A DNA stretch of 64,000 nucleotides from NCBI RefSeq assembly GCF_003019035.1, contig NZ_CP027447.1; one strand, 5' to 3'. Made by a program: the position numbers and the translations under genes. This document shows positions 53,423-64,000 of the stretch, in pieces. A model generated the notes under the pieces. It was not told where the DNA came from, searched no databases, and saw only the letters and a list, made by a program, of their open reading frames with translations. This stretch comes from Escherichia coli. GTDB taxonomy: Bacteria > Pseudomonadota > Gammaproteobacteria > Enterobacterales > Enterobacteriaceae. Positions within the stretch are counted from its first letter, which is position 1. Every line of letters starts with the position of its first letter.

Positions 53423-53636
53423 TTGCGTGTGGCCATTCCTTGATCAGACATGAGATAAATGAAGGGGGATCCGTGAGATAAATAACGAATTGGAGTGGGT
53501 TAACATGGGTTCTGGTGAACAGAACTGAAATTCTTTTTCGTTATACGATAGATAAGTCGGACATTGAAATCATCCTTTCTGGCAACTTAGAATCGAGTTT
53601 GCTGAAACATGACTCGTAACAAAAAGGATGATTCCA

Positions 53637-53798
53637 ATGACTACTCAAAACAATAAGCATGATAGCCTGGATTACTCAGAAAAGCCCAAAAGCAAGCACA
53701 TCGTGACGTTCGAGCGCGATTCCGGTAGAAAAGGAGAATCGTCTTCCTCTGCCAATAAAAACACTATACCGGCAGCTCCTGCTCCGGGGAAAAAATAA
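53637..53798 (+). CDS. hypothetical small hydrophilic protein (53 aa)
   Basis: Hand-translated MTTQNNKHDSLDYSEKPKSKHIVTFERDSGRKGESSSSANKNTIPAAPAPGKK; AAGGA about 10 nt upstream of the ATG; below the ORF-track cutoff. Confidence 0.25.
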   Translation: MTTQNNKHDSLDYSEKPKSKHIVTFERDSGRKGESSSSANKNTIPAAPAPGKK

Positions 53799-53801
53799 AC
53801 A

Positions 53802-54434
53802 TCATTCATCGTTCGTTGCACGAACGCGCCTGATCTCCACTCTGGCAATCTGATCTGCTGGAATATAGGTTGCCAGAGCTCCCCAGTACTTATCAACCAC
53901 GCCTTTATACTCTTCCCATTCGTTACTGCCTGAAGGGCTGCTGTGTGTGACGTAAAGAACCATATCGCCTTTATTCCCCAGGGTAAACGGACCGTTAGGC
54001 CACTCTTCAAAGTTCCCTGGCAGTCGTGACATCATACCGGAACCATCGCGAAGAATCACTCTGACCTCGGTGACGCTGAAGTCTGTTTGATCAAACATTG
54101 CCTGCCATGCTGAGCTGGTATCGTCAGACCATGAAATATCATTATTCCACAGTAATCTGTACATCCATTTGCGACCGTACCTGCGCCACCACGCACCACA
54201 TGTAACAGCACACAGAAGTGCTGGTGGTGTTGCCAGCCAGGCATTCAGACCTGCCCACATAACAGCCTGGTAAGCCATCATTGCTGTCAGGCCAAAAATT
54301 AGCGAAGAAAAAGTCACCTCAATGGGTTTGTGCTGATCCTTCAGCCCCACATTCGCAATAAAATACCCAATATAGCCACTGGTCAGAGTCACCAGTGTTG
54401 CCCATGGCAAATTTAACAACGAAACGTCAAACAT
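53802..54434 (-). CDS. prophage-encoded membrane protein, unknown function (3 predicted TM helices plus about 120-aa soluble domain)
   Basis: ORF 53802..54512; start trimmed to ATG 54434 (MFDVSLLNLPW...), which has an AGGGAG Shine-Dalgarno 6 nt upstream; lies just past the post-mor terminator. Confidence 0.6.
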   Translation of the reverse strand: MFDVSLLNLPWATLVTLTSGYIGYFIANVGLKDQHKPIEVTFSSLIFGLTAMMAYQAVMWAGLNAWLATPPALLCAVTCGAWWRRYGRKWMYRLLWNNDISWSDDTSSAWQAMFDQTDFSVTEVRVILRDGSGMMSRLPGNFEEWPNGPFTLGNKGDMVLYVTHSSPSGSNEWEEYKGVVDKYWGALATYIPADQIARVEIRRVRATNDE

Positions 54435-54471
54435 ATTTTCTCCCTGCATCCTGAATACTACAGAGAGAGCA

Positions 54472-54508
54472 TAAAAAAAGCACGGTAAGGGGTCTACCGT
54501 GCTTTTAT
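54472..54508 (-). terminator. intrinsic terminator after mor (end of the early operon)
   Basis: Minus strand reads GCACGGTA-GACCCCT-TACCGTGC followed by TTTTTTT; A-tract on the other side makes it potentially bidirectional. Confidence 0.8.
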
Positions 54509-54548
54509 ACAATAAGGAGATTTTTGAAAGGACTTTAACAAGCAGGAA

Positions 54549-54947
54549 TTATCTGGATTTGTTAACGTCTCTCGTCTCTTCTGGCAGATCTTCATCAAAC
54601 AACCTGCCCTGCATCCGATCCAGTTCTTCTTTTCTGACCCGCTTAACCACGCTGTAGACCCACTGAAGCGAAACACCAAACTTGCGGGCCAGTTCATGGT
54701 GGTTGCGTCCGTTAAACTCCCGGAAGATTTCCCGGTCGCGCTGACTGACCTTCCATACCATGCCCATCGGGAAATAAACGTTTTGCCCGCCCCAGACCTG
54801 CATCATGCGGTTCGCGACGGCCTGACCAATCTGGTCGGCAATTGCGGGCTCAATATCAATAATCTCGCGAACGGTCTCAGAGGTATGCTGTGCCAGTTCC
54901 ACCAGGAGTTCCGGCCCTTTACTTCGAAACTGATTCAGGTCGCTCAT
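54549..54947 (-). CDS. mor: Mor-family middle-operon transcription activator
   Basis: 132-aa ORF; C-terminal HTH (HHELARKFGVSLQWVYSVV) and position after GemA as in Mu; family assigned from memory. Confidence 0.75.
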   Translation of the reverse strand: MSDLNQFRSKGPELLVELAQHTSETVREIIDIEPAIADQIGQAVANRMMQVWGGQNVYFPMGMVWKVSQRDREIFREFNGRNHHELARKFGVSLQWVYSVVKRVRKEELDRMQGRLFDEDLPEETRDVNKSR

Positions 54948-55371
54948 GTTTTACTCCCGCAGCTCTGCGCTGCCACTTCTTCAGTTTCTCAATAACACTG
55001 CTTGCCTGTTCTGTATTGAGCCAGCGCAGGGCGCTGATGCCCGTTTCCCGCTTGATCCACCGCGCTAATGCATTTTCTGAACGGTCACGAACAATGCCGG
55101 CAGCAGCCATTTCAAGCCATAGCGCACGGATTTTCCTGGACTGCGGATGGTTATCCAGCGGTAAACCGGAGCTGGCTTTTCCGGCAGGCTTAACGCGAAA
55201 GCCTTTCCTTTTCATGGATTCCAGCACGCAGTTTAGTTGTGTGGTATCCATTCCTTTGGTTGAGGCTTTACCGGTCAGCCCCTGTAACATCTGGCGGTAG
55301 GTGTCTTCATCCATACCCAGTTCATTACGGGCAATATGAATGAGCTGGATAAGACGTTGTTTAGTCATCAT
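54919..55371 (-). CDS. gemA: GemA (Mu gp16)-like protein
   Basis: ORF 54919..55410; likely start at MMTKQRLIQLIHIARNELGMDEDTYRQ; resembles the Mu GemA/DUF1018 family by recall; overlaps mor start. Confidence 0.65.
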   Translation of the reverse strand: MMTKQRLIQLIHIARNELGMDEDTYRQMLQGLTGKASTKGMDTTQLNCVLESMKRKGFRVKPAGKASSGLPLDNHPQSRKIRALWLEMAAAGIVRDRSENALARWIKRETGISALRWLNTEQASSVIEKLKKWQRRAAGVKHERPESVSK

Positions 55372-55576
55372 CGTTGCTCCTTTTACCTGCGCCACCGATA
55401 TAATCGACATATAAAGGAAGCGCCACAGGCCAGCACAGGAACATCACCGACCAGCTAATCCAGTAGCCGGCACCACTGTAACGTGAATAAAACCCTGAAC
55501 GGCGGTGCAGTTCAGCAGTACACCAACCGACAAAACAATACCAGAACAGGGCACATACAACAGATTCAGCCGTCAT
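55361..55576 (-). CDS. hypothetical small membrane protein
   Basis: ORF 55361..55732; plausible start at internal MTAESVVCALFWYCFVGW; two hydrophobic segments; start uncertain. Confidence 0.35.
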   Translation of the reverse strand: MTAESVVCALFWYCFVGWCTAELHRRSGFYSRYSGAGYWISWSVMFLCWPVALPLYVDYIGGAGKRSNDDD

Positions 55577-55796
55577 TCTGAATATCCCCCCAACTGATAT
55601 GAATATTACGGGCAGCAATGACAGGGTCGTTATCCCACCATGCACCTGACATGTATTTTTCAACCTGTTCGCGTCCGGCAATAACACCAATTGTGATCCC
55701 CGGCCTGACGTTCTTAAAAAAGGCGCGGGCAAAAAGGTATCTGGCAGATATTCGGCAGGCTTTTAATTTCCGGCTGTTACCTGATAGCGTAATCAT
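55566..55796 (-). CDS. hypothetical protein (76 aa), translationally coupled to the upstream gene
   Basis: ATG overlaps the stop of the upstream 227-aa gene (ATGA arrangement). Confidence 0.4.
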   Translation of the reverse strand: MITLSGNSRKLKACRISARYLFARAFFKNVRPGITIGVIAGREQVEKYMSGAWWDNDPVIAARNIHISWGDIQNDG

Positions 55797-56476
55797 CTGG
55801 CCTCCAGTTTCTGTTGTTCCTGCCCACTGACCGGGCGGTGCAGTCTGACGTTCTGCCCTTCACGAAACCCCGCATAGCGCGAGGCGTCACCATTGCGGCT
55901 TCTTCCCGGTTTACGCGCCCTGGTGGTTTGCGTTTGCGGGTATTTATGTTCCAGCCACTGCTGCATCAGTTCACGTTCGTCATCAGTCAGGGCGAAGGAC
56001 TGTATTTCACTGATAACGGCCAGCACCCAGCCTTCAGCAAACTGGTCTCCACGGCTGGTGCGGGTGGCGGTTTTTATTCTTTTGTTCTGTGTGCTGATAT
56101 ACTGCTGACGCGCCTTTTTCAGCTGGCGGGCCAGCACTTCCCAAGTGTACGCAGCCAGTGCGGCCCGTTCCCGGTTGCCGTAGAATCCCACACCCGGATA
56201 TGTGCCGGGGTGAATGATGGAGTTAACACCAAATGCCTCGCGGATGATGTTCATCAGGCCCAACATATAGCGCGGTGGACGGAGGCTGCCTGTCGGCCAG
56301 TAGTGGCTGATGGTTTCATCAATATCACTCATGGCAATGTCGGAATGTGTGATGCCGTGAACATCCATCAGTTTACGGGCACGGCGCAGTGCCAGAGCGG
56401 CCTCGTGCGGGTTGCCGGATGCAGCCAGCGCCAGCAGTTTTTTCAGTTTCTCAATGTGTTTATCCAGGTCTGTCAT
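55793..56476 (-). CDS. conserved phage protein (DUF2786-like N-terminus)
   Basis: 227-aa ORF; N-terminus KLKKLLALAASGNPHEAALALRRARKLM resembles the DUF2786 signature as I recall it; 4-bp overlap with the upstream gene. Confidence 0.5.
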   Translation of the reverse strand: MTDLDKHIEKLKKLLALAASGNPHEAALALRRARKLMDVHGITHSDIAMSDIDETISHYWPTGSLRPPRYMLGLMNIIREAFGVNSIIHPGTYPGVGFYGNRERAALAAYTWEVLARQLKKARQQYISTQNKRIKTATRTSRGDQFAEGWVLAVISEIQSFALTDDERELMQQWLEHKYPQTQTTRARKPGRSRNGDASRYAGFREGQNVRLHRPVSGQEQQKLEAR

Positions 56477-56778
56477 TGTTCGGTATCTCCGGTGTACATG
56501 ACGCCCAGCCGTGCGGCAAGGCGTTCCAGTTTTTTCTGTTTGTGGAAGTCAATCAGCCGGCCCATCCCCTGAAGACGCAACTGCTCTGTCATGATTTCCA
56601 CGTCTGCCAGCTCTGCCGCGAGGTCACTTTCGCTGCCCTGTCCGTTCAGGTTGCGGGCAGCACTGGCCGCCAGTTCGGCGGCCTCTTCTGTCAGTTTCAG
56701 GGCCTGTGCATCCGGCCCGAAACGCTGCAGAGCCAGACGATAGAGGGCAGTGCGTGTGAGTATGGTGTTCCGTGTCAT
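56473..56778 (-). CDS. hypothetical phage protein (101 aa)
   Basis: ORF in the tightly packed early operon, same strand. Confidence 0.45.
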   Translation of the reverse strand: MTRNTILTRTALYRLALQRFGPDAQALKLTEEAAELAASAARNLNGQGSESDLAAELADVEIMTEQLRLQGMGRLIDFHKQKKLERLAARLGVMYTGDTEQ

Positions 56779-56787
56779 GCCGCGCCC

Positions 56788-57060
56788 TCAGTGCTTCCGG
56801 TCGACGGTGATGTGCAGGCCGCCTTCTGCAGTGGTTTCCATCCGGTACGGCACCTCATGCTCTGCCGTGTGGGTGAGTGTGTTCACCAGTACCTGCAGGG
56901 CAGCCTCCTTTCCGTTGGTCGTCACAATGGCCTGAGCGGCCATGCTGATTAGCGCTGTCAGGACGTGCTTCACATCGGTGAGGTCGCGGCATTCACACTC
57001 GTTGACATAGTGTTCAACAAGGGTTCGGGTGCGCTGTCGTGCTTCCTGTGGGGTAATCAT
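56788..57060 (-). CDS. hypothetical phage protein (90 aa)
   Basis: ORF in the early operon; 4-bp overlap with the upstream zinc-ribbon ORF. Confidence 0.45.
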   Translation of the reverse strand: MITPQEARQRTRTLVEHYVNECECRDLTDVKHVLTALISMAAQAIVTTNGKEAALQVLVNTLTHTAEHEVPYRMETTAEGGLHITVDRKH

Positions 57061-57251
57061 TGCGAGTCCTCCCTGTCAGGGCGGGAGAATTCCATGACGG
57101 GCACGTCCGCTGAAAAATGTTGGCTGCAGTACGGACAGACCAGGGTGACGCGCACTGCAGGTACGTGGTACTTACCGGACATCACGGCGATGGCGCTGTG
57201 AAAACGCAGGGCTGTTATATCCCTCTCGCACTGAATACATTTAAATATCAT
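57057..57251 (-). CDS. small zinc-ribbon protein (64 aa)
   Basis: Two Cys pairs, CIQC and CPYC, about 40 residues apart. Confidence 0.45.
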   Translation of the reverse strand: MIFKCIQCERDITALRFHSAIAVMSGKYHVPAVRVTLVCPYCSQHFSADVPVMEFSRPDREDSQ

Positions 57252-57348
57252 GATTTAATTCTCCTCTGTTTCCGGCGTGCAGAAGCCCACGGCGCTGACG
57301 CCGGAATAAAAAAGAAAATGTTTTTATTAAATAATTAACGTGGTGTGT

Positions 57349-57879
57349 TTACTGCACATCCTGCTCAAAAGGAATTATTGAAAAATCCTCAATATCACTT
57401 TTTATGGTAATACCGGGAATATTTTTCACGGCCTCTTTTTCATTCAGAATGGCATCTTTATTTATTTCCTCTTTTACACGAATAAAGCGCTCAAGCCCCA
57501 GACGTCTCAGTAGTTCAATAACATTATCCGCTCCACGGATACTGACTGATGGCGGACGGTTTCGCCACTGCACCTCGCCGGTGGTGAGGTTAGCGAACTT
57601 CACCTTCCCGTTGCCGGTCAGTTCATCACGGTGTGCCTCACACCATGTCTGAATACCGGACTGCAGTTCGGCCATGCGTTTTTTCAGGCTCTCGGTGAGC
57701 GGGGCATAACGTGCGGTGATATCGCCAATGGCGTCATTCATTTCTGTTTCAGCCCTGACCAGTTCACGTTGTGCGTCACCGAGCAGTCTGATTCCCTCAA
57801 TGACCTCTTCGCGTGTCCCCGGTACCCAGAGTGCCGCTGCGGACTTGATACGTTTTGCCCCTTTTGTACTTTTTGCCAT
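57349..57879 (-). CDS. gam: Gam-like host-nuclease inhibitor (Mu Gam family, DNA-end binding)
   Basis: 176 aa; strong similarity to Mu Gam as I recall it (...KRIKSAAA...ETEMNDAI...WCEA.RDELT..GKVK.ANL.TG.V.WR.RPPSVSIRG...RLGL.RFIR.K.EINK.AIL...GITVKS.IEDFSIIPFEQ). Confidence 0.8.
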   Translation of the reverse strand: MAKSTKGAKRIKSAAALWVPGTREEVIEGIRLLGDAQRELVRAETEMNDAIGDITARYAPLTESLKKRMAELQSGIQTWCEAHRDELTGNGKVKFANLTTGEVQWRNRPPSVSIRGADNVIELLRRLGLERFIRVKEEINKDAILNEKEAVKNIPGITIKSDIEDFSIIPFEQDVQ

Positions 57880-57906
57880 ATCTTATGATTTCTCCGGTTG
57901 TGCTGA

Positions 57907-58176
57907 TTACCACAAAGATTCCGGCCACACGACGCGACAGCCGTGCAGTTCGAAAACGCCCTGACGGAAATATCCCCTGTGGTCATGTCCGGTATACAGA
58001 TAACAGGCCTTTCCCTGCTCAAGCATGCGCATGCAATGCGCACTTCGGGAAACGCGGATGACAGGTTTGTTACCCCTGATGGTGATGCTTTGTACATCCG
58101 TGTTCGTCGCCTTAAGCGCCATAATGGCTGACTGCACTTTGCTGATTTGCTGGTTGATACCTGTGGTGGATTTCAT
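57907..58176 (-). CDS. hypothetical phage protein (89 aa)
   Basis: ORF between the partner ATPase gene and gam. Confidence 0.45.
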   Translation of the reverse strand: MKSTTGINQQISKVQSAIMALKATNTDVQSITIRGNKPVIRVSRSAHCMRMLEQGKACYLYTGHDHRGYFRQGVFELHGCRVVWPESLW

Positions 58177-58178
58177 TA

Positions 58179-59372
58179 TTAAACCCCTTTGACAACGTCA
58201 GCGTTGACCTGTGGAACCCCGATTTCAGCGGCCAGATTCATGGCGGCTATCACCAGGTTACTGACGGCCAGCGGATACAACAGGCTGACCATATTTTTAC
58301 GATGACTTCCCGGATTGCTCAGGCGGGCACGTATGGCATCCACTGCACTGGCGTCCATAATGTCCGTCAGTTGTTTACCTGCCCGTTGCAGTTTGAACGT
58401 CAGAAACTCTTCAAGGTTATTGTCCAGAGGCAGAAGTTCGACCACCTCACAGCGCTGAACGACTTCACGGACTTCCATATTGCGTTCAGACAGTTTTGTC
58501 GCCAGTTCCGGCTGGCCAATCAGCACGATGGACAGCAGTTTTTTGAAACCGGACTCCAGCTCAAAAAAGCGTTTGAGGTGTTTCAGTGTCGGAATGGGCA
58601 GACTGTGGGCCTCCTCAATCACCAGAACGTGGCTGAACCCCGCCTGGCTGCTGTCTTTCAGGACGCGATGCAACTGGCGAAAGCGGGCGTCCTGACTGCG
58701 TCTGATGCTTTCCAGTGGTGCGATGGTACTGATAATGGCTTCGGCAATAGCTGCTGCCTTCAGGGTTTTCCCTTTCACATCGTTGTCTTCCATAGCGATG
58801 ATGTATGGCTCGATAACAATTACCGGCGCATTCTCGCGGTTGATACGTTCAGTCAGGTCGCGGCGCAGCGTGGATTTACCCGCACCGGACTCACCGATGA
58901 CGGCCATAAACCCACCATGACGGGCTGTCTGGTACAACGCCTCACGCACGTAGCGAATGTCCGGGGTGGTGAACACATCATCAGAACCCTGCATGGCTTC
59001 GTCGGCGAACGGGTCACGGAAAAGACCAAACGCTTTTTTGGTTGCTGGAAATAACACCTGTTTTTTGAGTAACATATTCTCTTCCTCACTGAGGCTCGTT
59101 TTATCTGTGGTACCCGCTGTACGGGGCGTGGCCGCGCCCTGTACAGCATCAAAACTCTTCGCTGTATCAATCCCCTGACTTTCCAGCCAGGACGCAAGAC
59201 GCCGGCGCACTTCTCCGGGGCTGGTGCGGGGCCACGCGTTATGATTCACAATCTGGGCCAGCGTGGCCTCAGAAACATCGACAGCTCTCGCCACCACCGC
59301 CTGTGGAATACGGGCCTCTTTCAGTTGCTGCTTCAGTACCAGCATGTTTCCCTCCTCAGTTGCCGTTAACAA
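58179..59372 (-). CDS. transposition ATPase (MuB/TniB-like AAA+ target-DNA activator)
   Basis: 397 aa; Walker A GESGAGKST; immediately downstream of and overlapping the transposase gene. Confidence 0.75.
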   Translation of the reverse strand: MLTATEEGNMLVLKQQLKEARIPQAVVARAVDVSEATLAQIVNHNAWPRTSPGEVRRRLASWLESQGIDTAKSFDAVQGAATPRTAGTTDKTSLSEEENMLLKKQVLFPATKKAFGLFRDPFADEAMQGSDDVFTTPDIRYVREALYQTARHGGFMAVIGESGAGKSTLRRDLTERINRENAPVIVIEPYIIAMEDNDVKGKTLKAAAIAEAIISTIAPLESIRRSQDARFRQLHRVLKDSSQAGFSHVLVIEEAHSLPIPTLKHLKRFFELESGFKKLLSIVLIGQPELATKLSERNMEVREVVQRCEVVELLPLDNNLEEFLTFKLQRAGKQLTDIMDASAVDAIRARLSNPGSHRKNMVSLLYPLAVSNLVIAAMNLAAEIGVPQVNADVVKGV

Positions 59373-61125
59373 TGCTGATAACGCTGCTGCGGGCCGGCGT
59401 GGTCAGCGTGGCCATGACTTCATCCAGTGCGGCTTCCGGTACGCCGTCCGGGTACTGTGCCGTTAACTGGCGGTAATGTTCCGGCGTCCAGGTAAGGCCG
59501 TCGGCGCTGAACTTATCGCGCAGGGCTTTCGCGGCCTCCACATGAGTCATGGGACGTTGTTCAGTGCGCGGTCTGCGTACATCAGAGGCCTGACCGCGCT
59601 TCGGTATACAGGCCGGAAGTGTGGCGTCATCAATATGTTTATACGGGTCAAGCCGCCCGCCGAACGGCAGCGCCTTCGCCTTGCGTGCGGCAGCTGCATC
59701 TGCGGCGTTGTCTGTACCGGTGACCAGCGCTTCGGTTTCTTTTGCCGCCGTCTGTGCCGGTGTTTCCGGCAGGGCTTTGTAACTTTCGCCAAATACCGCC
59801 GCGCCTTCAGCAAAGCCAAACTCGTTCTTTCTGACCTCTTCGACCAGGAAGAACGTCTCGTGGCCGTCCTCACCGGTCAGAACCACCTGTGCCACATCGC
59901 TGCGCCATGGGTTACGGGTAATCATCAGTTTTTCACCAACCAGTACGCCCGGTACCGTTGATACGTCAAATTCAGTGCCCCGGAACGAGACACGAAGTTT
60001 TGGCGTGACTTTGCGGAGTTCTGGTGTCGTCACAGCCAGTTCACGGCATACCTCAACGGAAGGCGCTTTTTTCAGCTGCTCAGCAGTAATCTTCAGCCAG
60101 ATATCCGTGCGGGTTTTACCGTGGCGGCTGTGAACAGCTGTTGCGTTAAAGTGGCTACGCCATTTCGCGGCCAGCGCGTTGAGTTCTTCCAGACTGTGAA
60201 CCGGCCGGAACTTCAGACCCGGCTCCAGCTTGCGTTCGATAATGTCACGCGCCTTTTCCACCTGTCCGGTGGCGCGGGCGTTATGCGGCTTGTGCGCTAT
60301 CAGGTCGATGCCCAGTGAGCGGCACATGTTTTTCGTCATACCCGCGGTGTTTGCCGAGCCGGGGTCGAGATAGAGTATTTTCGGCACGCCGTGCAGCACG
60401 TCTGCGCCGCCACGCTCCTGCATGGCGTTGATAAGCACAGAACACAGGTTCTCACCGGATTCCGCACCCGTCACATACTCAACGTAAATCCAGCCGCTGG
60501 CATGGTCGGTAATCTCGTAACTCCACACGCGGTCACTGGCGATACGGGCAAGGTTAGCGGGCTTGTTCTTGTAGAACTTCGCGCTGTCCATCACCTGCAG
60601 CCCTTTGTGTCCATTGCTCAGGTAGTAAAGCGTGCAGAGAGAGGCATCAATCTGCCAGACATGATTGGGATGCAGACTGGCCACTTCGGTATGCGGCGCA
60701 GGGGCATCCAGTTGTTCCGGGTGCAGGCCATAGTTACGCAGGGCACGGCTGATAGCATCTTCGGACAACGGGAAAAACTCACCGGTGGTTTCATCTGTTC
60801 TGCCTGCGGAGATAAAGCCGTTAGCCCGCAGGGTTTCCACTGCATCTGCGATGGAATAGAGACGCTTACCGTTCTTGCGGGTGGCCTCACGTAGTGTGGC
60901 AGATATCAGCGCGGCTTCGTCGCGGGTCAGGGCGCTGCGCCCGGCATCGGCGCGTTTTTTGCGTTTATCAGTCACAGAGACCTCCTTCAGCCTGCGCAGC
61001 AGAGTGGCGCGGGACATGCCAAGTTCAGCACAGGCGGCGTCATATATTGCACCACGTTTACCATGCCCCGCGTCACGTGCCGCGCGGGCGACATAAACCA
61101 GTCGTTCAGTCAGGGCAGCATTCAT
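59356..61125 (-). CDS. DDE transposase (Mu A-like, rve/integrase-core type)
   Basis: 589 aa; N-terminal HTH region, central DDE-type core (HVWQIDASL..., LYLDPGSANTAG..., distal E), C-terminal extension; paired with the AAA+ ATPase gene. Confidence 0.8.
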   Translation of the reverse strand: MNAALTERLVYVARAARDAGHGKRGAIYDAACAELGMSRATLLRRLKEVSVTDKRKKRADAGRSALTRDEAALISATLREATRKNGKRLYSIADAVETLRANGFISAGRTDETTGEFFPLSEDAISRALRNYGLHPEQLDAPAPHTEVASLHPNHVWQIDASLCTLYYLSNGHKGLQVMDSAKFYKNKPANLARIASDRVWSYEITDHASGWIYVEYVTGAESGENLCSVLINAMQERGGADVLHGVPKILYLDPGSANTAGMTKNMCRSLGIDLIAHKPHNARATGQVEKARDIIERKLEPGLKFRPVHSLEELNALAAKWRSHFNATAVHSRHGKTRTDIWLKITAEQLKKAPSVEVCRELAVTTPELRKVTPKLRVSFRGTEFDVSTVPGVLVGEKLMITRNPWRSDVAQVVLTGEDGHETFFLVEEVRKNEFGFAEGAAVFGESYKALPETPAQTAAKETEALVTGTDNAADAAAARKAKALPFGGRLDPYKHIDDATLPACIPKRGQASDVRRPRTEQRPMTHVEAAKALRDKFSADGLTWTPEHYRQLTAQYPDGVPEAALDEVMATLTTPARSSVISIVNGN

Positions 61126-61128
61126 TGG

Positions 61129-62043
61129 TTATGCCTCCAGCCCGTTAATCTGTGGCGTCGGCTCAGTCAGCCATGAAGGCGCGACATCGCCTGTTGGCTC
61201 GTCCGGCAGGTCAAATGTGGAGCGCAGGCTACGCGCTGTGCTTTCCAGTTGACAGACCAGGCCTGCCATGAAGTCTCTGGGGGTATCAATCATGTTTTCA
61301 GCACAATATGCGCACAGCGTCTCAAAAGCGCTGGACAGTCGAACGGCGATAGCAGATTCCGCCTCAACCGCTAATGCTGTCACTTCCGCCCGCAGCTTCT
61401 TAACCTCTTCATCAGGCTCAGGCGGCTGAATACGGGATTTCTTCTCCAGTTTTGTGGAAAGCGAGTCGATTTTTTCGTTTTTGTCGGCCAGCACGCGCTG
61501 TTGTGCTGCGTTGGTTTCGCGGGCTTCGCGCAGGGCCTGACGCAATTCACGTACTGACATGCGATCAACGTCGTCAAGCGTCAGGCCGGCAACTGTGCCG
61601 CCGTCGGCCAATTCATCAAGTTCTTCATTATCCAGAACCATCAGGTCGTACAGTTTGGCTTTCCCCAAAACGCTCAACGTTGAGCGTTTTGTTGGCTCAT
61701 CACCTTCTCCCAAAAACTTCATACTGGCTTGCATCATGCGGCGAGCAACTTGTGGTGCAAGTCCGAGTTCATTTTCTAAAATGTTTGTAAAATCACCGTG
61801 TGGCTCATTTTCTTTTAAGATGATCAGCCGTTTACCCGCTTCCAGCATAGATTCAGCACTCTGCGCCATATAAAAACGTGCTTCGTGAACAATGCGATCA
61901 CGTTCATAAGGCAGTCCATCACCAAACTGCTGCATAATTTCCATGCGATGCTGTGTCATAGCGTTCAAATTGACATTGATGTTATCTGACAGCGGAACCT
62001 CAACATTCAGTTCAGTGTTAACGGGTGATTTGGTGCGTCCCAT
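61129..62043 (-). CDS. hypothetical phage protein (304 aa), predicted coiled-coil-rich
   Basis: ORF immediately upstream of the transposase gene; charged heptad-like central region. Confidence 0.45.
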   Translation of the reverse strand: MGRTKSPVNTELNVEVPLSDNINVNLNAMTQHRMEIMQQFGDGLPYERDRIVHEARFYMAQSAESMLEAGKRLIILKENEPHGDFTNILENELGLAPQVARRMMQASMKFLGEGDEPTKRSTLSVLGKAKLYDLMVLDNEELDELADGGTVAGLTLDDVDRMSVRELRQALREARETNAAQQRVLADKNEKIDSLSTKLEKKSRIQPPEPDEEVKKLRAEVTALAVEAESAIAVRLSSAFETLCAYCAENMIDTPRDFMAGLVCQLESTARSLRSTFDLPDEPTGDVAPSWLTEPTPQINGLEA

Positions 62044-62053
62044 TGATTACTCC

Positions 62054-62362
62054 TTACAAACGACTACCTGAAATAACTCGTTGGTTGATTTCGTTAATAC
62101 GATCCTGTGCACGCGCCATCTCGTGACTGTGAGCCATGGCGATCTGTAGTAACTGGATTCCCGGTGCGAAACGTCCGTTCTCTAATTTCATGGCCAGTCC
62201 CTCTTCAATAAGGGTATTAAGTGCTCGATTGATATTCGCCGGGGACTCCCCCAGGGCTGATGCCAGTTCACCGTTAGAAACACCGTTCAGAGCATGACCG
62301 CGTAGAGCTTTGAGTACACGTAGGATGCGGCTCCCGGAACTGGAAATATTTACTTTACTCAT
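62054..62362 (-). CDS. small winged-HTH protein (IclR-like DNA-binding domain only)
   Basis: ORF 62054..62425; likely start at MSKVNISSSGSRILRVLKALRGH...; start uncertain. Confidence 0.45.
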   Translation of the reverse strand: MSKVNISSSGSRILRVLKALRGHALNGVSNGELASALGESPANINRALNTLIEEGLAMKLENGRFAPGIQLLQIAMAHSHEMARAQDRINEINQRVISGSRL

Positions 62363-62414
62363 GTCACATTTCCATTTTTGCAATATGTGATAACCTGTTG
62401 CATATGTGGAAAAT

Positions 62415-62603
62415 TTATGCCGCATTTGACGTGGGTTTTAATCCCAGTTTTACGGCAATTTCATGGGCTTTGCCGTAACGAGCTTTGGTCTGTCCATTGA
62501 GAACACGATAGACCTCATTGCGGCTGTAGCCGTGTTCTTCGGCCCAGCGGGTAAACGTGATACCACGCTGACGGAAGAGATTTTTAACTTGTTCGGAAGT
62601 CAT
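62415..62603 (-). CDS. ner: Ner-like DNA-binding protein (Mu Ner/Nlp family)
   Basis: 62 aa; aligns with the Ner/Nlp HTH pattern (G.t..rWaee.G.s...vyrvL.G....kG..IA..LG.kP); first gene of the early operon, divergent from the repressor. Confidence 0.65.
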   Translation of the reverse strand: MTSEQVKNLFRQRGITFTRWAEEHGYSRNEVYRVLNGQTKARYGKAHEIAVKLGLKPTSNAA

Positions 62604-62640
62604 TGTTGTCTCCTTTGTTGATGCAATGATGTTTGTTTTA

Positions 62641-62695
62641 TATGTGATAGATTATGTGAACTATTGTTCTCATTGTCAATGAGGTTTATGTGAAT
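62641..62695. promoter_or_regulatory. candidate operator repeats in the repressor/ner divergent intergenic
   Basis: TATGTGA occurs three times (62641, 62653, 62687), the last two as TTATGTGAA; the third contains the repressor GTG start. Confidence 0.35.
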
Positions 62696-63115
62696 TTTGA
62701 TTCTCTTTGCGCGTCGCGGTTCAAAGCTGAGCGTTCGCGGTTATCACTCAAGCAGGCTGAAGTAGCAGCCCTTTGTGGCGTTTCAAGAGAAATGTGGGGG
62801 AAATATGAACGAGGGGTTGCTGTTCCCGGAGGTGAGTTACTTGCAGCCTTTGCAAGAATTGGGGCCAATGTACAGTTCATTCTTACCGGGGAGTCATCAG
62901 GTATAACTTTATCACGTGATGAAATGGAGTTACTGCAGCACTACCGGCAAGCACCGTTACAGGTCAAAGGTTCAGTTTTGTCGGCTTTGACTACTGGCTC
63001 CTCCAGAGAACGGGCGGAACAGGTTATTCATGGAGATGTTCTGGGGAATGTTATCAAAGGTAACGTAACCATAGGAACAGGTGGAATAATGAACAAAAAT
63101 ACCAAGAGAAGATGA
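62690..63115 (+). CDS. XRE-family (Cro/C1-type HTH) phage repressor candidate
   Basis: 141 aa, GTG start; N-terminal HTH (LSLKQAEVAALCGVSREMWGKYERG); divergent from the ner-transposase operon. Confidence 0.7.
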   Translation: MNFDSLCASRFKAERSRLSLKQAEVAALCGVSREMWGKYERGVAVPGGELLAAFARIGANVQFILTGESSGITLSRDEMELLQHYRQAPLQVKGSVLSALTTGSSRERAEQVIHGDVLGNVIKGNVTIGTGGIMNKNTKRR

Positions 63116-64000
63116 GTAAAGAGAAGCAAACAGTTAACGGGGATGTGGGTAACGTTGTCAGCGGTGATGTTACCATTCATAACTATTCTGCTGACATACT
63201 TCCTTCTGCCCAGCAACCAATTTCGTTGCTGCAAAAACGCGATTTACACAGATTGATGGATGAATTGGTTGATCTGGGGGAAAGTAAGCGCGAGCTATGG
63301 ATGACGATCCACACGAAACTTAATACCAAAACAGTTAATGAAATGACTGCGGCTGATTATCATGGTGCGGTTGAGATCCTTCAGAGATATGCACAACAGA
63401 TCCAGAATATGAAGGACTGTAATCTTCTGGTCAGCAAAATAATGGCGCTTACTGACCCTGGGTATCGTCTTGACCGTGACAGATACTGTCTGAAGCATTT
63501 CGGTACAACCCATCTTAAAGGCCTGGACAAAGAGCAGTTGCAGGCTGTGTTTGGTTATTTTGATGATCTGCTGAATATTCGTGATGAGAGTAAAACTCTA
63601 TCACCTCCATCGGAAAGCGGTGCAAAATCAGTCGCAACTGTACCAACCAGAAGCCGGAAGCCTCATGTAGTAGTGTTGGGGGGAGCGTTAGTTCTTGTAG
63701 CAATATTTTTCGTGGGAATGATTGTGTTCGCTGGTAAATGGGGAAATGCTAAAGCAGTAGCTTCTACTGAAACCAGCGTTTTTAACATTAAAACCAACGA
63801 CAAAATAATAGAAGATTCCATCCCCGCACTGCGCAGCATGTTTCCAGGATTAAATAAGTACTCAGATGATTTCCATTCGGTTTCAAGCTACAAGCAAAAA
63901 ACGGGCTGGCATACCCTTAAATTTACTGTATCAGCAAAGGCATCCGTCCCCGAAAATTATAGTGTTAAGGGCAAGGTTTGTTACATTAACATAAACCCTG
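63112..64000 (+). CDS. hypothetical single-pass membrane protein, 3' partial (runs off window end)
   Basis: Hand-translated open frame from ATG 63112 with no stop before 64000 (absent from ORF track because incomplete); ATG overlaps repressor stop (ATGA); TM helix VVVLGGALVLVAIFFVGMIVFAG. Confidence 0.6.
   Translation, partial: MSKEKQTVNGDVGNVVSGDVTIHNYSADILPSAQQPISLLQKRDLHRLMDELVDLGESKRELWMTIHTKLNTKTVNEMTAADYHGAVEILQRYAQQIQNMKDCNLLVSKIMALTDPGYRLDRDRYCLKHFGTTHLKGLDKEQLQAVFGYFDDLLNIRDESKTLSPPSESGAKSVATVPTRSRKPHVVVLGGALVLVAIFFVGMIVFAGKWGNAKAVASTETSVFNIKTNDKIIEDSIPALRSMFPGLNKYSDDFHSVSSYKQKTGWHTLKFTVSAKASVPENYSVKGKVCYININP

What the first reader, a model, noticed from the sequence alone, without database searches (positions are those of the whole stretch)
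61129..62425. Two non-canonical genes between ner and the transposase
Mu has ner directly followed by A. Here an IclR-like winged-HTH protein (domain only) and a 304-aa charged, coiled-coil-like protein are inserted between the Ner-like gene and the transposase, all tightly packed on one strand. They may be extra regulators of transposition or lysogeny specific to this lineage.
Basis: partly seen in the sequence, partly recalled or inferred. Interest (0 to 1): 0.4.

Follow-up and report, generated by a model that had tools for sequence, protein, structure and literature searches.

The report
Conserved early gene pair, BcepMu/B3-like prophage
The two genes between the cro/ner-like gene and the transposase are real, but they are the standard, widely conserved partners of this family's transposase (BcepMu gp12/gp10, B3 ORF14/ORF13) and not a lineage-specific insertion; their function has never been tested.

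The parts
62651..62679 (-). Early promoter Pe (TTGACA, 17-nt spacer, CATAAT) that drives the whole operon
   Evidence: Consensus scan: 11 of 12 positions match. It is the only minus-strand promoter-like site in 58000-63300, and no minus-strand terminator-like site lies between it and the transposase.
62415..62603 (-). Cro/Ner-like small HTH protein (62 aa), first gene of the operon
   Evidence: TIGR04111 BcepMu_gp16 family, 94.4 bits against a cut-off of 34. PHROG 925, E 1.3e-32. AAGGAG ribosome-binding site.
62378..62405 (-). Conserved non-coding block (TAACAGRTTATCACATATYGCAAAAA) in the 52-nt cro-wHTH spacer. A near-copy (CTATCACATAT) lies at Pe, 62640-62650.
   Evidence: TTATCACATA is present in 30 of 59 distinct upstream regions, namely those with a gp16-type cro gene, while the flanking sequence diverges. 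The repeat between the spacer and Pe is seen. Function untested.
62054..62362 (-). 102-aa basic winged-helix protein: an IclR-type DNA-binding domain plus a C-terminal helix, with no effector domain (BcepMu gp12 / B3 ORF14 family)
   Evidence: Pfam HTH_IclR E 1.5e-6. PHROG 1368 full length, E 2.9e-44. 57% identical to B3 ORF14 and 34% to BcepMu gp12. pI 10.7, family median 10.6. dN/dS 0.03-0.11.
61129..62043 (-). 304-aa acidic all-helical protein, DUF3102 family (BcepMu gp10 / B3 ORF13 family)
   Evidence: Pfam DUF3102, 28.5 bits against a cut-off of 24.4. PHROG 1748 full length, E 3.7e-141. AlphaFold2 pLDDT 90.8. 1,653 clusters at 50% identity in public data.
61558..61902 (-). Globular helical domain (residues 48-162), the DUF3102 domain, with a putative HTH (helices 84-92 and 97-111) and a SAP-like motif at about 157-175
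61600..61803 (-). Mosaic hypervariable patch (residues about 81-148, covering the putative recognition helix)
   Evidence: 28-68% nucleotide identity here, in prophages that are otherwise 97-100% identical over the early region (L018 and B7A). Allele classes recur in distantly related phages. dN/dS stays at 0.1-0.2.
61216..61554 (-). C-terminal long-helix (coiled-coil-like) region, residues 164-276
   Evidence: AlphaFold2 helices 164-205, 210-249 and 256-276. This part is shared with PHROG 4623 proteins of JBD25-type phages. In many relatives it shares the low divergence of the transposase gene.
59356..61125 (-). rve (DDE) transposase, 589 aa, BcepMu gp9 / B3 ORF12 type
   Evidence: Pfam rve only. 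PHROG 310 aligned from profile position 129. 68% identical to BcepMu gp9. No MuA hit among PDB sequences.
58179..59345 (-). AAA+ transposition ATPase (MuB analogue, ExeA family)
   Evidence: Pfam AAA_22 E 3.9e-20. PHROG 296 'DNA transposition protein'. The start follows the RefSeq annotation.

Best explanation
The two genes are the E. coli versions of BcepMu gp12/gp10 (B3 ORF14/ORF13), a conserved pair at the head of the early operon of BcepMu/B3-type transposable phages. Shown here: both are transcribed from Pe together with the cro-like gene, the transposase and the ATPase, with translational-coupling distances of 10 and 3 nt. Both are under purifying selection, and the gene order is essentially invariant across the family. 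Inferred: the 102-aa basic protein binds specific DNA as a dimer, through an IclR-type winged helix and a C-terminal helix. The 304-aa acidic protein is a dimeric adaptor. It has a ParB/KorB-like HTH helical domain that binds DNA or a basic partner, and a long-helix C-terminal domain for oligomerisation or docking. Together they most likely act early after induction as DNA-bound regulators or architectural factors. They would control the early replication-transposition phase, meaning early transcription and/or where and when the transpososome assembles. This would resemble the small KorA plus acidic KorB pair of plasmid RK2. They are not optional lineage-specific add-ons.
Confidence: 0.4

Rival explanations
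1. Dedicated transposition subunits. The DUF3102 protein, helped by the wHTH, would be a third component of the transposition machinery. It would tether or organise the Tn552-like transposase on phage ends or on an enhancer-like site, or guide target choice. It would supply in trans what MuA does with its own N-terminal enhancer-binding domain and host IHF/HU.
For: The DUF3102 gene lies immediately upstream of the transposase gene and within coupling distance (3 nt) in nearly all transposable-phage loci examined. PhiKM-type relatives are the exception, with one extra ORF between the two genes. KS10 has the arrangement with a different transposase lineage. In many mosaics the C-terminal domain shares the low divergence of the transposase gene while the N-terminal domain does not. 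The transposase matches PHROG 310 only from profile position 129 and hits no Mu-specific Pfam model.
Against: Full-length paralogues, including the C-terminal domain, sit in phage-plasmids with no transposase, next to an Arc-like repressor and a Mor-like activator. Co-inheritance with the transposase gene could be simple physical linkage. No site is shared between the phage ends (GAGATAAAT repeats) and the operator region.
Confidence: 0.25
2. The DUF3102 protein is a protein-binding factor, not a DNA binder. It could be an acidic antirepressor, or a factor that binds a host nucleoid or defence protein, made early to commit the cell to lytic growth. The wHTH would be an ordinary transcription factor.
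For: The family is consistently acidic (median pI 5.1). The best structural match is the Raf1 alpha-domain, a protein-binding assembly-chaperone domain. In phage-plasmids a paralogue follows an Arc-like repressor gene, an order that resembles arc-ant of phage P22 (the P22 comparison is from my own knowledge). The hypervariable patch varies independently of every neighbouring phage gene, which fits a partner encoded elsewhere, for example by the host.
Against: No similarity to known antirepressor families (ANT, KilAC, Bro-N) in Pfam. No hit to defence-related models. dN/dS in the patch is 0.1-0.2, so there is no sign of positive selection. ParB-type HTH hits recur, and KorB itself is acidic (my own knowledge).
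Confidence: 0.15
3. One or both ORFs are dispensable passengers (morons) with no role in the phage life cycle.
For: Mu and other transposable phages work without them: no Mu record is among the 67 phage records that match. The early regions of these phages contain many accessory ORFs (PMC9936078).
Against: Position and order are invariant across Escherichia, Klebsiella, Burkholderia, Pseudomonas, Stenotrophomonas and Ralstonia phages, while the neighbouring immunity genes are swapped. Purifying selection is strong. There are 1,653 clusters at 50% identity.
Confidence: 0.05

Closest known systems
Pseudomonas phage B3 ORF14/ORF13 and Burkholderia phage BcepMu gp12/gp10 (also PM105_14/13, phiSHP3 orf18/17, JBD25 gp16/gp15)
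   Same: Same two protein families (PHROG 1368; PHROG 1748 or 4623; Pfam DUF3102). Same sizes (about 100 and about 300-325 aa). Same order directly upstream of the rve transposase and the AAA+ ATPase. Same early leftward operon.
   Different: 52% and 41% identity for the DUF3102 protein, and 57% and 34% for the wHTH. B3, BcepMu and JBD25 have one to three extra genes (CII-like and others) between cro and the wHTH, whereas here the wHTH follows cro after a 52-nt spacer. BcepMu has a 70-aa gene (gp11) between gp12 and gp10.
Phage Mu early region (c, ner, A, B)
   Same: Divergent repressor and cro-like genes, then an early operon encoding a DDE transposase, an AAA+ ATPase, Gam, GemA and Mor. The prophage sits at different chromosomal sites in different strains and has TG...CA ends.
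   Different: In Mu, ner is followed directly by A (established knowledge). Here the cro-like protein is BcepMu_gp16 family, not Ner. The transposase hits only rve in Pfam, none of the Mu-specific models, and no MuA in PDB sequences. The repressor is XRE-type. Two extra conserved genes are present.
KorA/KorB of IncP plasmid RK2, and ParB-family HTH proteins
   Different: No ParB/Srx-type N-terminal (CTPase) domain was detected. The C-terminal region is long helices, not the KorB or ParB dimerisation domain. There is no sequence similarity. The wHTH is IclR-type, not KorA-type. This is an analogy only.
IclR-family transcription regulators
   Same: The N-terminal winged helix matches Pfam HTH_IclR above the gathering score.
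   Different: The protein is only 102 aa and has no IclR effector-binding domain. It is a stand-alone DNA-binding domain with one extra helix.
DUF3102 paralogues in SSU5-like phage-plasmids (e.g. Enterobacter pFJMB80062_2)
   Same: Same family (PHROG 1748 and PHROG 4623 matches). They sit at the start of divergent early operons beside a small repressor and a Mor-family activator.
   Different: No transposase or AAA+ ATPase nearby and no wHTH partner detected. One paralogue is shorter (243 aa).

Membership tests
BcepMu gp12 / B3 ORF14 family (PHROG 1368) | Full-length profile match and a size of about 100 aa | tested here: met
   PHROG 1368 E 2.9e-44, covering profile positions 1-100 of 101. 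46 full-length distinct homologues of 98-104 aa.
BcepMu gp12 / B3 ORF14 family (PHROG 1368) | Position upstream of the gp10-like gene and the transposase in the early operon | tested here: met
DUF3102 (Pfam PF11300) / PHROG 1748 (BcepMu gp10, B3 ORF13) | Domain score above the Pfam gathering threshold, and a full-length PHROG match | tested here: met
   28.5 bits against 24.4. PHROG 1748 E 3.7e-141 over 1-302 of 304 residues. 54 of 61 aligned homologues hit DUF3102.
IclR family of transcription regulators | N-terminal HTH_IclR winged helix | tested here: met
   PF09339, 28.3 bits against a cut-off of 22.
IclR family of transcription regulators | C-terminal IclR effector-binding domain of about 150-180 aa | tested here: not met
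   The protein has 102 aa, and no such Pfam hit appears at E up to 0.01. It is therefore not a true IclR-family member; it only shares the type of DNA-binding domain.
ParB/KorB family | Central HTH DNA-binding domain fold | tested here: inconclusive
ParB/KorB family | N-terminal ParB/Srx (CTP-binding) domain | tested here: not met
   No Pfam hit other than DUF3102 at E up to 0.01. Residues 1-47 are low-confidence or a single helix in the model.
ParB/KorB family | Cognate repeated DNA sites (parS or operator) | not tested
   No candidate sites were identified. The only repeated motif near the genes (TTATCACATAT) tracks the cro type, not DUF3102.
Mu-type early region (Ner followed by MuA) | Ner-family protein (Pfam HTH_35) | tested here: not met
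   The 62-aa protein hits only HTH_31, below its cut-off, and TIGR04111 BcepMu_gp16. True HTH_35 Ner proteins do occur in some distant relatives.
Mu-type early region (Ner followed by MuA) | MuA-type transposase with Mu-specific N-terminal DNA-binding domains and the Mu C-terminal domain | tested here: not met
   Only rve is detected in Pfam. No MuA among PDB sequence hits at E up to 1. The PHROG 310 alignment starts at profile position 129.
BcepMu/B3-type transposable phage (Bcepmuvirus / Beetrevirus-like) | Early operon cro - (wHTH) - gp10-like - rve transposase - ExeA-type ATPase ... GemA - Mor at the left end; transposon-like ends; variable insertion sites | tested here: met
   The closest phage, PhiKM, is classified as Bcepmuvirus (91% nucleotide identity). 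Gene order. Left end at window 53441 with TG and two GAGATAAAT repeats. Relatives are inserted in mdfA (with a 6-bp duplication, GCAAAT) or next to ybaV.

The most novel reading that the evidence does not exclude
The DUF3102 protein could be an obligatory third subunit of a large, unstudied class of phage transposition systems (Tn552-like TnpA plus ExeA-like TnpB). It would be a dimeric ParB-like adaptor whose exchangeable HTH patch sets DNA-site or partner specificity, and whose C-terminal helices dock the transposase. The small winged-helix protein would be its DNA-anchoring partner. That would be a new way of building a transpososome, in place of Mu's enhancer and IHF/HU.
Probability: 0.2. 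Interest if true: 0.55.

Novelty: already known. Interest (0 to 1): 0.25.

Why it matters
As a genome feature it is ordinary. Identical or near-identical proteins are already in RefSeq as 'DUF3102 domain-containing protein' and 'helix-turn-helix domain-containing protein'. The same pair was listed as conserved hypothetical proteins in the annotated B3, BcepMu and KS10 genomes. The residual interest is that this prophage family is common (about 12% of complete E. coli genomes, and many Salmonella, Klebsiella, Enterobacter, Pseudomonas and Burkholderia). Its transposition machinery has not been dissected as Mu's has. These two invariant, early-expressed genes are the obvious untested candidates for what differs from Mu. 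This analysis adds four testable leads: a ParB/KorB-like fold, a basic/acidic pairing, a recombination hot spot over the putative recognition helix, and paralogues in phage-plasmids that lack a transposase.

Tried and rejected
1. Sequence searches of both proteins and of two DUF3102 profiles against all PDB sequences found nothing meaningful.

2. I looked for Rosetta-stone fusions of the wHTH to DUF3102 or to the transposase. None was found. The longer homologues carry Cys-rich N-terminal extensions with no Pfam match.

3. Defence-system models (PADLOC) gave no hit for the DUF3102 protein and only generic wHTH hits for the small protein. A defence or anti-defence assignment was rejected for lack of evidence.

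4. I tried a co-variation test. Two E. coli prophages (A24-type and B7A) differ in the hypervariable patch, and I compared them in full to find a co-varying DNA site. It was inconclusive, because they also differ in several accessory, lysis and tail regions.

5. I asked whether the TTATCACATAT motif upstream of the wHTH gene is the wHTH or DUF3102 site. It tracks the gp16-type cro gene, not the downstream genes, and is absent where another gene precedes the wHTH. It was not used as evidence.

6. Literature. 'DUF3102' returns 3 papers, whose titles and abstracts concern unrelated topics; I did not read them in full. The B3 genome paper is not held. [quoted passage not shown]

7. I considered a fused-chain AlphaFold run to test complex formation and dropped it, because the tool returns no contacts or PAE.

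8. The first alignment (A1) was too divergent for the search for related loci. A 12-sequence alignment worked.

Full report
**What is in the sequence**

Window 53441-64000 is the left part of a transposable prophage. The finding lies in its early operon on the minus strand.

- A strong sigma-70-like promoter (TTGACA, 17-nt spacer, CATAAT; 62679 to 62651) is the only minus-strand promoter-like site in 58-63.3 kb. No minus-strand terminator-like site lies between it and the transposase.
- Downstream of the promoter lie, in order:
  - a 62-aa cro/ner-like gene (62415-62603);
  - a 52-nt spacer;
  - a winged-helix gene (62054-62362);
  - a 10-nt spacer with TAAGGAG;
  - a 304-aa gene (61129-62043);
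  - a 3-nt spacer with GGAGG;
  - the 589-aa transposase (59356-61125).
- An AAA+ ATPase (58179-59345 by RefSeq) and Gam follow.
- An XRE-type repressor is transcribed divergently (62690-63115).

Two details need changing.

First, the winged-helix gene most likely starts at 62362 (102 aa), not 62425.
- The PHROG 1368 profile aligns from residue 22 of the long ORF.
- RefSeq annotates 309 nt.
- The 46 full-length distinct homologues recovered are 98-104 aa.
- Relatives have a GGAG/GGGG ribosome-binding site before this ATG.

Second, the 'Ner-like' protein is a BcepMu_gp16-family protein (TIGR04111), not a Ner (HTH_35) protein.

**What element this is**

- The 3.9-kb region is 91% identical to Escherichia phage PhiKM, which is classified as Bcepmuvirus. 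It also matches Phi06_2974 B and Klebsiella phage KP12.
- It is present in 642 of 5,426 complete E. coli genomes.
- The closest genome copy (strain A24, 99.4%) interrupts mdfA with a 6-bp duplication. Another copy (strain B7A) sits next to ybaV. The element therefore inserts at different sites.
- In the window the left end is at 53441 (TGATCAG...), with two GAGATAAAT repeats.
- The transposase hits only the rve Pfam model, none of the Mu-specific ones, and shows no detectable similarity to MuA among PDB sequences.

Mu is therefore the wrong yardstick for 'canonical' gene order.

**Are the two genes lineage-specific?**

No. tblastn finds the 304-aa protein in 67 phage records and the wHTH in 24. 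The hosts are Pseudomonas, Burkholderia, Stenotrophomonas, Ralstonia, Escherichia and Klebsiella.

The block wHTH, DUF3102, rve transposase, AAA+ ATPase is annotated in the following phages:
- B3, as ORF14-13-12-11;
- BcepMu, as gp12-(gp11)-gp10-gp9-gp8;
- PM105, phiSHP3, Mae-JY22 and Lsp-JY19;
- JBD25;
- Bise.

Eighty IMG/VR loci were retrieved with a DUF3102 alignment. Every one of the 75 that reaches upstream has the wHTH immediately before the DUF3102 gene, and every locus that reaches downstream has the same transposase after it. Meanwhile the repressor and cro genes are often replaced.

Metagenomic relatives at 36-48% identity still have the same transposase as the next gene.

The KS10 paper lists a BcepMu gp10-like 350-aa protein between the cro-like gene and a transposase of a different lineage (PMC2628397).

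The family comprises 1,653 clusters at 50% identity. Where the databases give it a name, it is named only 'DUF3102 domain-containing protein'.

**Are they real genes?**

Yes. Across 69 comparisons dN/dS is 0.03-0.11 for the wHTH and 0.02-0.3 for the two halves of the DUF3102 gene. This is similar to the transposase.

**What the proteins look like**

The small protein:
- It matches Pfam HTH_IclR above threshold but has no effector domain.
- It consists of a winged helix plus one C-terminal helix.
- It is strongly basic: pI 10.7, family median 10.6.

The large protein:
- It matches Pfam DUF3102 and, over its full length, PHROG 1748.
- With a 61-sequence alignment, AlphaFold2 gives pLDDT 90.8. 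The model has a globular helical domain (residues 48-162) followed by helices 164-205, 210-249 and 256-276.
- Weak SAP-like matches fall on the conserved DRMSVRELRxALRE motif.
- No solved structure is similar at the sequence level.
- The family is acidic, with a median pI of 5.1.

**Mosaic structure**

Prophages that are 97-100% identical to the window over the rest of the early region (IMG/VR locus L018; strain B7A) drop to 28-68% identity in window 61600-61800. This patch covers residues about 81-148, which includes the putative HTH.

The protein alignment shows discrete allele classes of the putative recognition helix and the following loop, for example APQVARRMMQAS, AYRTSVRMMQAS and KRTAQVMMQAS. 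These classes recur in distantly related phages.

In many relatives the C-terminal half shares the low divergence of the transposase gene, while the N-terminal half does not. This pattern fits a specificity-determining module. It may also partly reflect simple linkage. dN/dS gives no sign of positive selection.

**Contexts that bear on function**

- Variants with a Cys-rich N-terminal extension of about 250 aa lack a separate wHTH gene. In one of them a true Ner (HTH_35) gene is directly upstream. This hints that the extension replaces the wHTH and that the two products act together.
- SSU5-like phage-plasmids carry two DUF3102 paralogues, one of PHROG 4623 type and one of PHROG 1748 type. They flank an Arc-like repressor gene, lie next to a Mor-family activator, and have no transposase nearby. 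The family is therefore not tied to transposition as such.

**Literature**

- 'DUF3102' occurs in three papers, whose titles and abstracts concern unrelated topics; I did not read them in full.
- An RNA-seq study of the B3-like phage Fc02 shows that the pE operon fires within 10 min of induction. It states that most of the operon's ORFs are unassigned apart from A, B, gemA and mor (PMC9936078).

**Interpretation**

The best-supported reading (confidence about 0.4) is an early-expressed pair of DNA-bound regulator or adaptor proteins:
- a basic winged-helix DNA binder;
- an acidic, probably dimeric protein with a ParB/KorB-like HTH domain and long helices.

This pair would be functionally coupled to the replication-transposition module.

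The rivals are:
- A stricter version in which they are true transposition subunits (about 0.25). Invariant adjacency to the transposase favours it. The paralogues in phage-plasmids count against it.
- A protein-binding role for the DUF3102 protein, as an antirepressor or host-factor binder (about 0.15). The acidity and the Raf1-like fold favour it.
- Dispensable passengers (about 0.05).

None of these can be settled without experiments or interface predictions.

**Verdict**

The feature is an already catalogued, conserved but functionally uncharacterised gene pair of a common prophage family. Interest is low to modest.

Noticed in passing
window 53441-53500: Left end of the prophage. The host sequence ends at 53440. 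The phage starts with TGATCAGAC and carries two direct GAGATAAAT repeats (53452 and 53475), which are probable transposase-binding sites. In complete relatives the right end carries inverted ATTTATCGC copies and ends in ...GCATCA. In strain A24 the insertion in mdfA has a 6-bp duplication, GCAAAT.
   Followed up: partly
window 62378-62405 and 62640-62650: A conserved non-coding block (TAACAGRTTATCACATATYGCAAAAA) in the cro-wHTH spacer. It is kept in 30 of 59 distinct relatives while the flanks diverge. A near-copy lies just downstream of the -10 hexamer of Pe. It tracks the gp16-type cro gene. It may be a Cro operator or roadblock site controlling the distal early genes.
   Followed up: partly
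window 61600-61803: A recombination hot spot inside the DUF3102 gene (residues about 81-148). Identity falls to 28-68% in prophages that are otherwise 97-100% identical over the early region. The allele classes are shared with distantly related phages.
   Followed up: yes
window 53628-54512: Extra cargo between Mor and the left end. It includes an ORF that RefSeq annotates as a 210-aa hypothetical protein and that looks membrane-associated. The cargo is absent from the B7A prophage, where Mor is the last gene before the end. It is probably a moron.
   Followed up: no
L094:3603-5630 and L095 (Enterobacter and Citrobacter IncF phage-plasmids): Two divergently transcribed DUF3102 paralogues (318 aa of PHROG 4623 type; 243 aa of PHROG 1748 type) flank a 58-aa Arc-like repressor gene. 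They lie next to a Mor-family activator and tail genes on one side and exonuclease/RecA genes on the other. No transposase is present.
   Followed up: partly
L090:2105-3718, L091:1056-2693; proteins P0208, P0239, P0241, P0258: DUF3102 proteins with Cys-rich N-terminal extensions of 200-260 aa (repeated CxxC/H modules, no Pfam match). In these loci no separate wHTH gene is present. In L090 a true Ner (HTH_35) gene is directly upstream.
   Followed up: partly
L002:7842-8159 (phage PhiKM) and IMG/VR loci L031-L036, L043, L052: In PhiKM-type relatives an extra ORF of about 105 aa is inserted between the DUF3102 gene and the transposase. The 3-nt coupling seen in the window is therefore not universal.
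   Followed up: no
window 56950-57050: A second small divergent patch (48-60% identity) between the window and the otherwise near-identical B7A early region. It lies at the junction of two small early ORFs (56788-57060 and 57057-57251).
   Followed up: no
L097:36604-39298 and L098:37273-39296 (complete relatives, outside the window): The right end of the prophage carries a serine recombinase (Gin/Cin-like) next to oppositely oriented tail-fibre and tail-fibre-assembly gene fragments. This suggests an invertible host-range segment like that of Mu.
   Followed up: no
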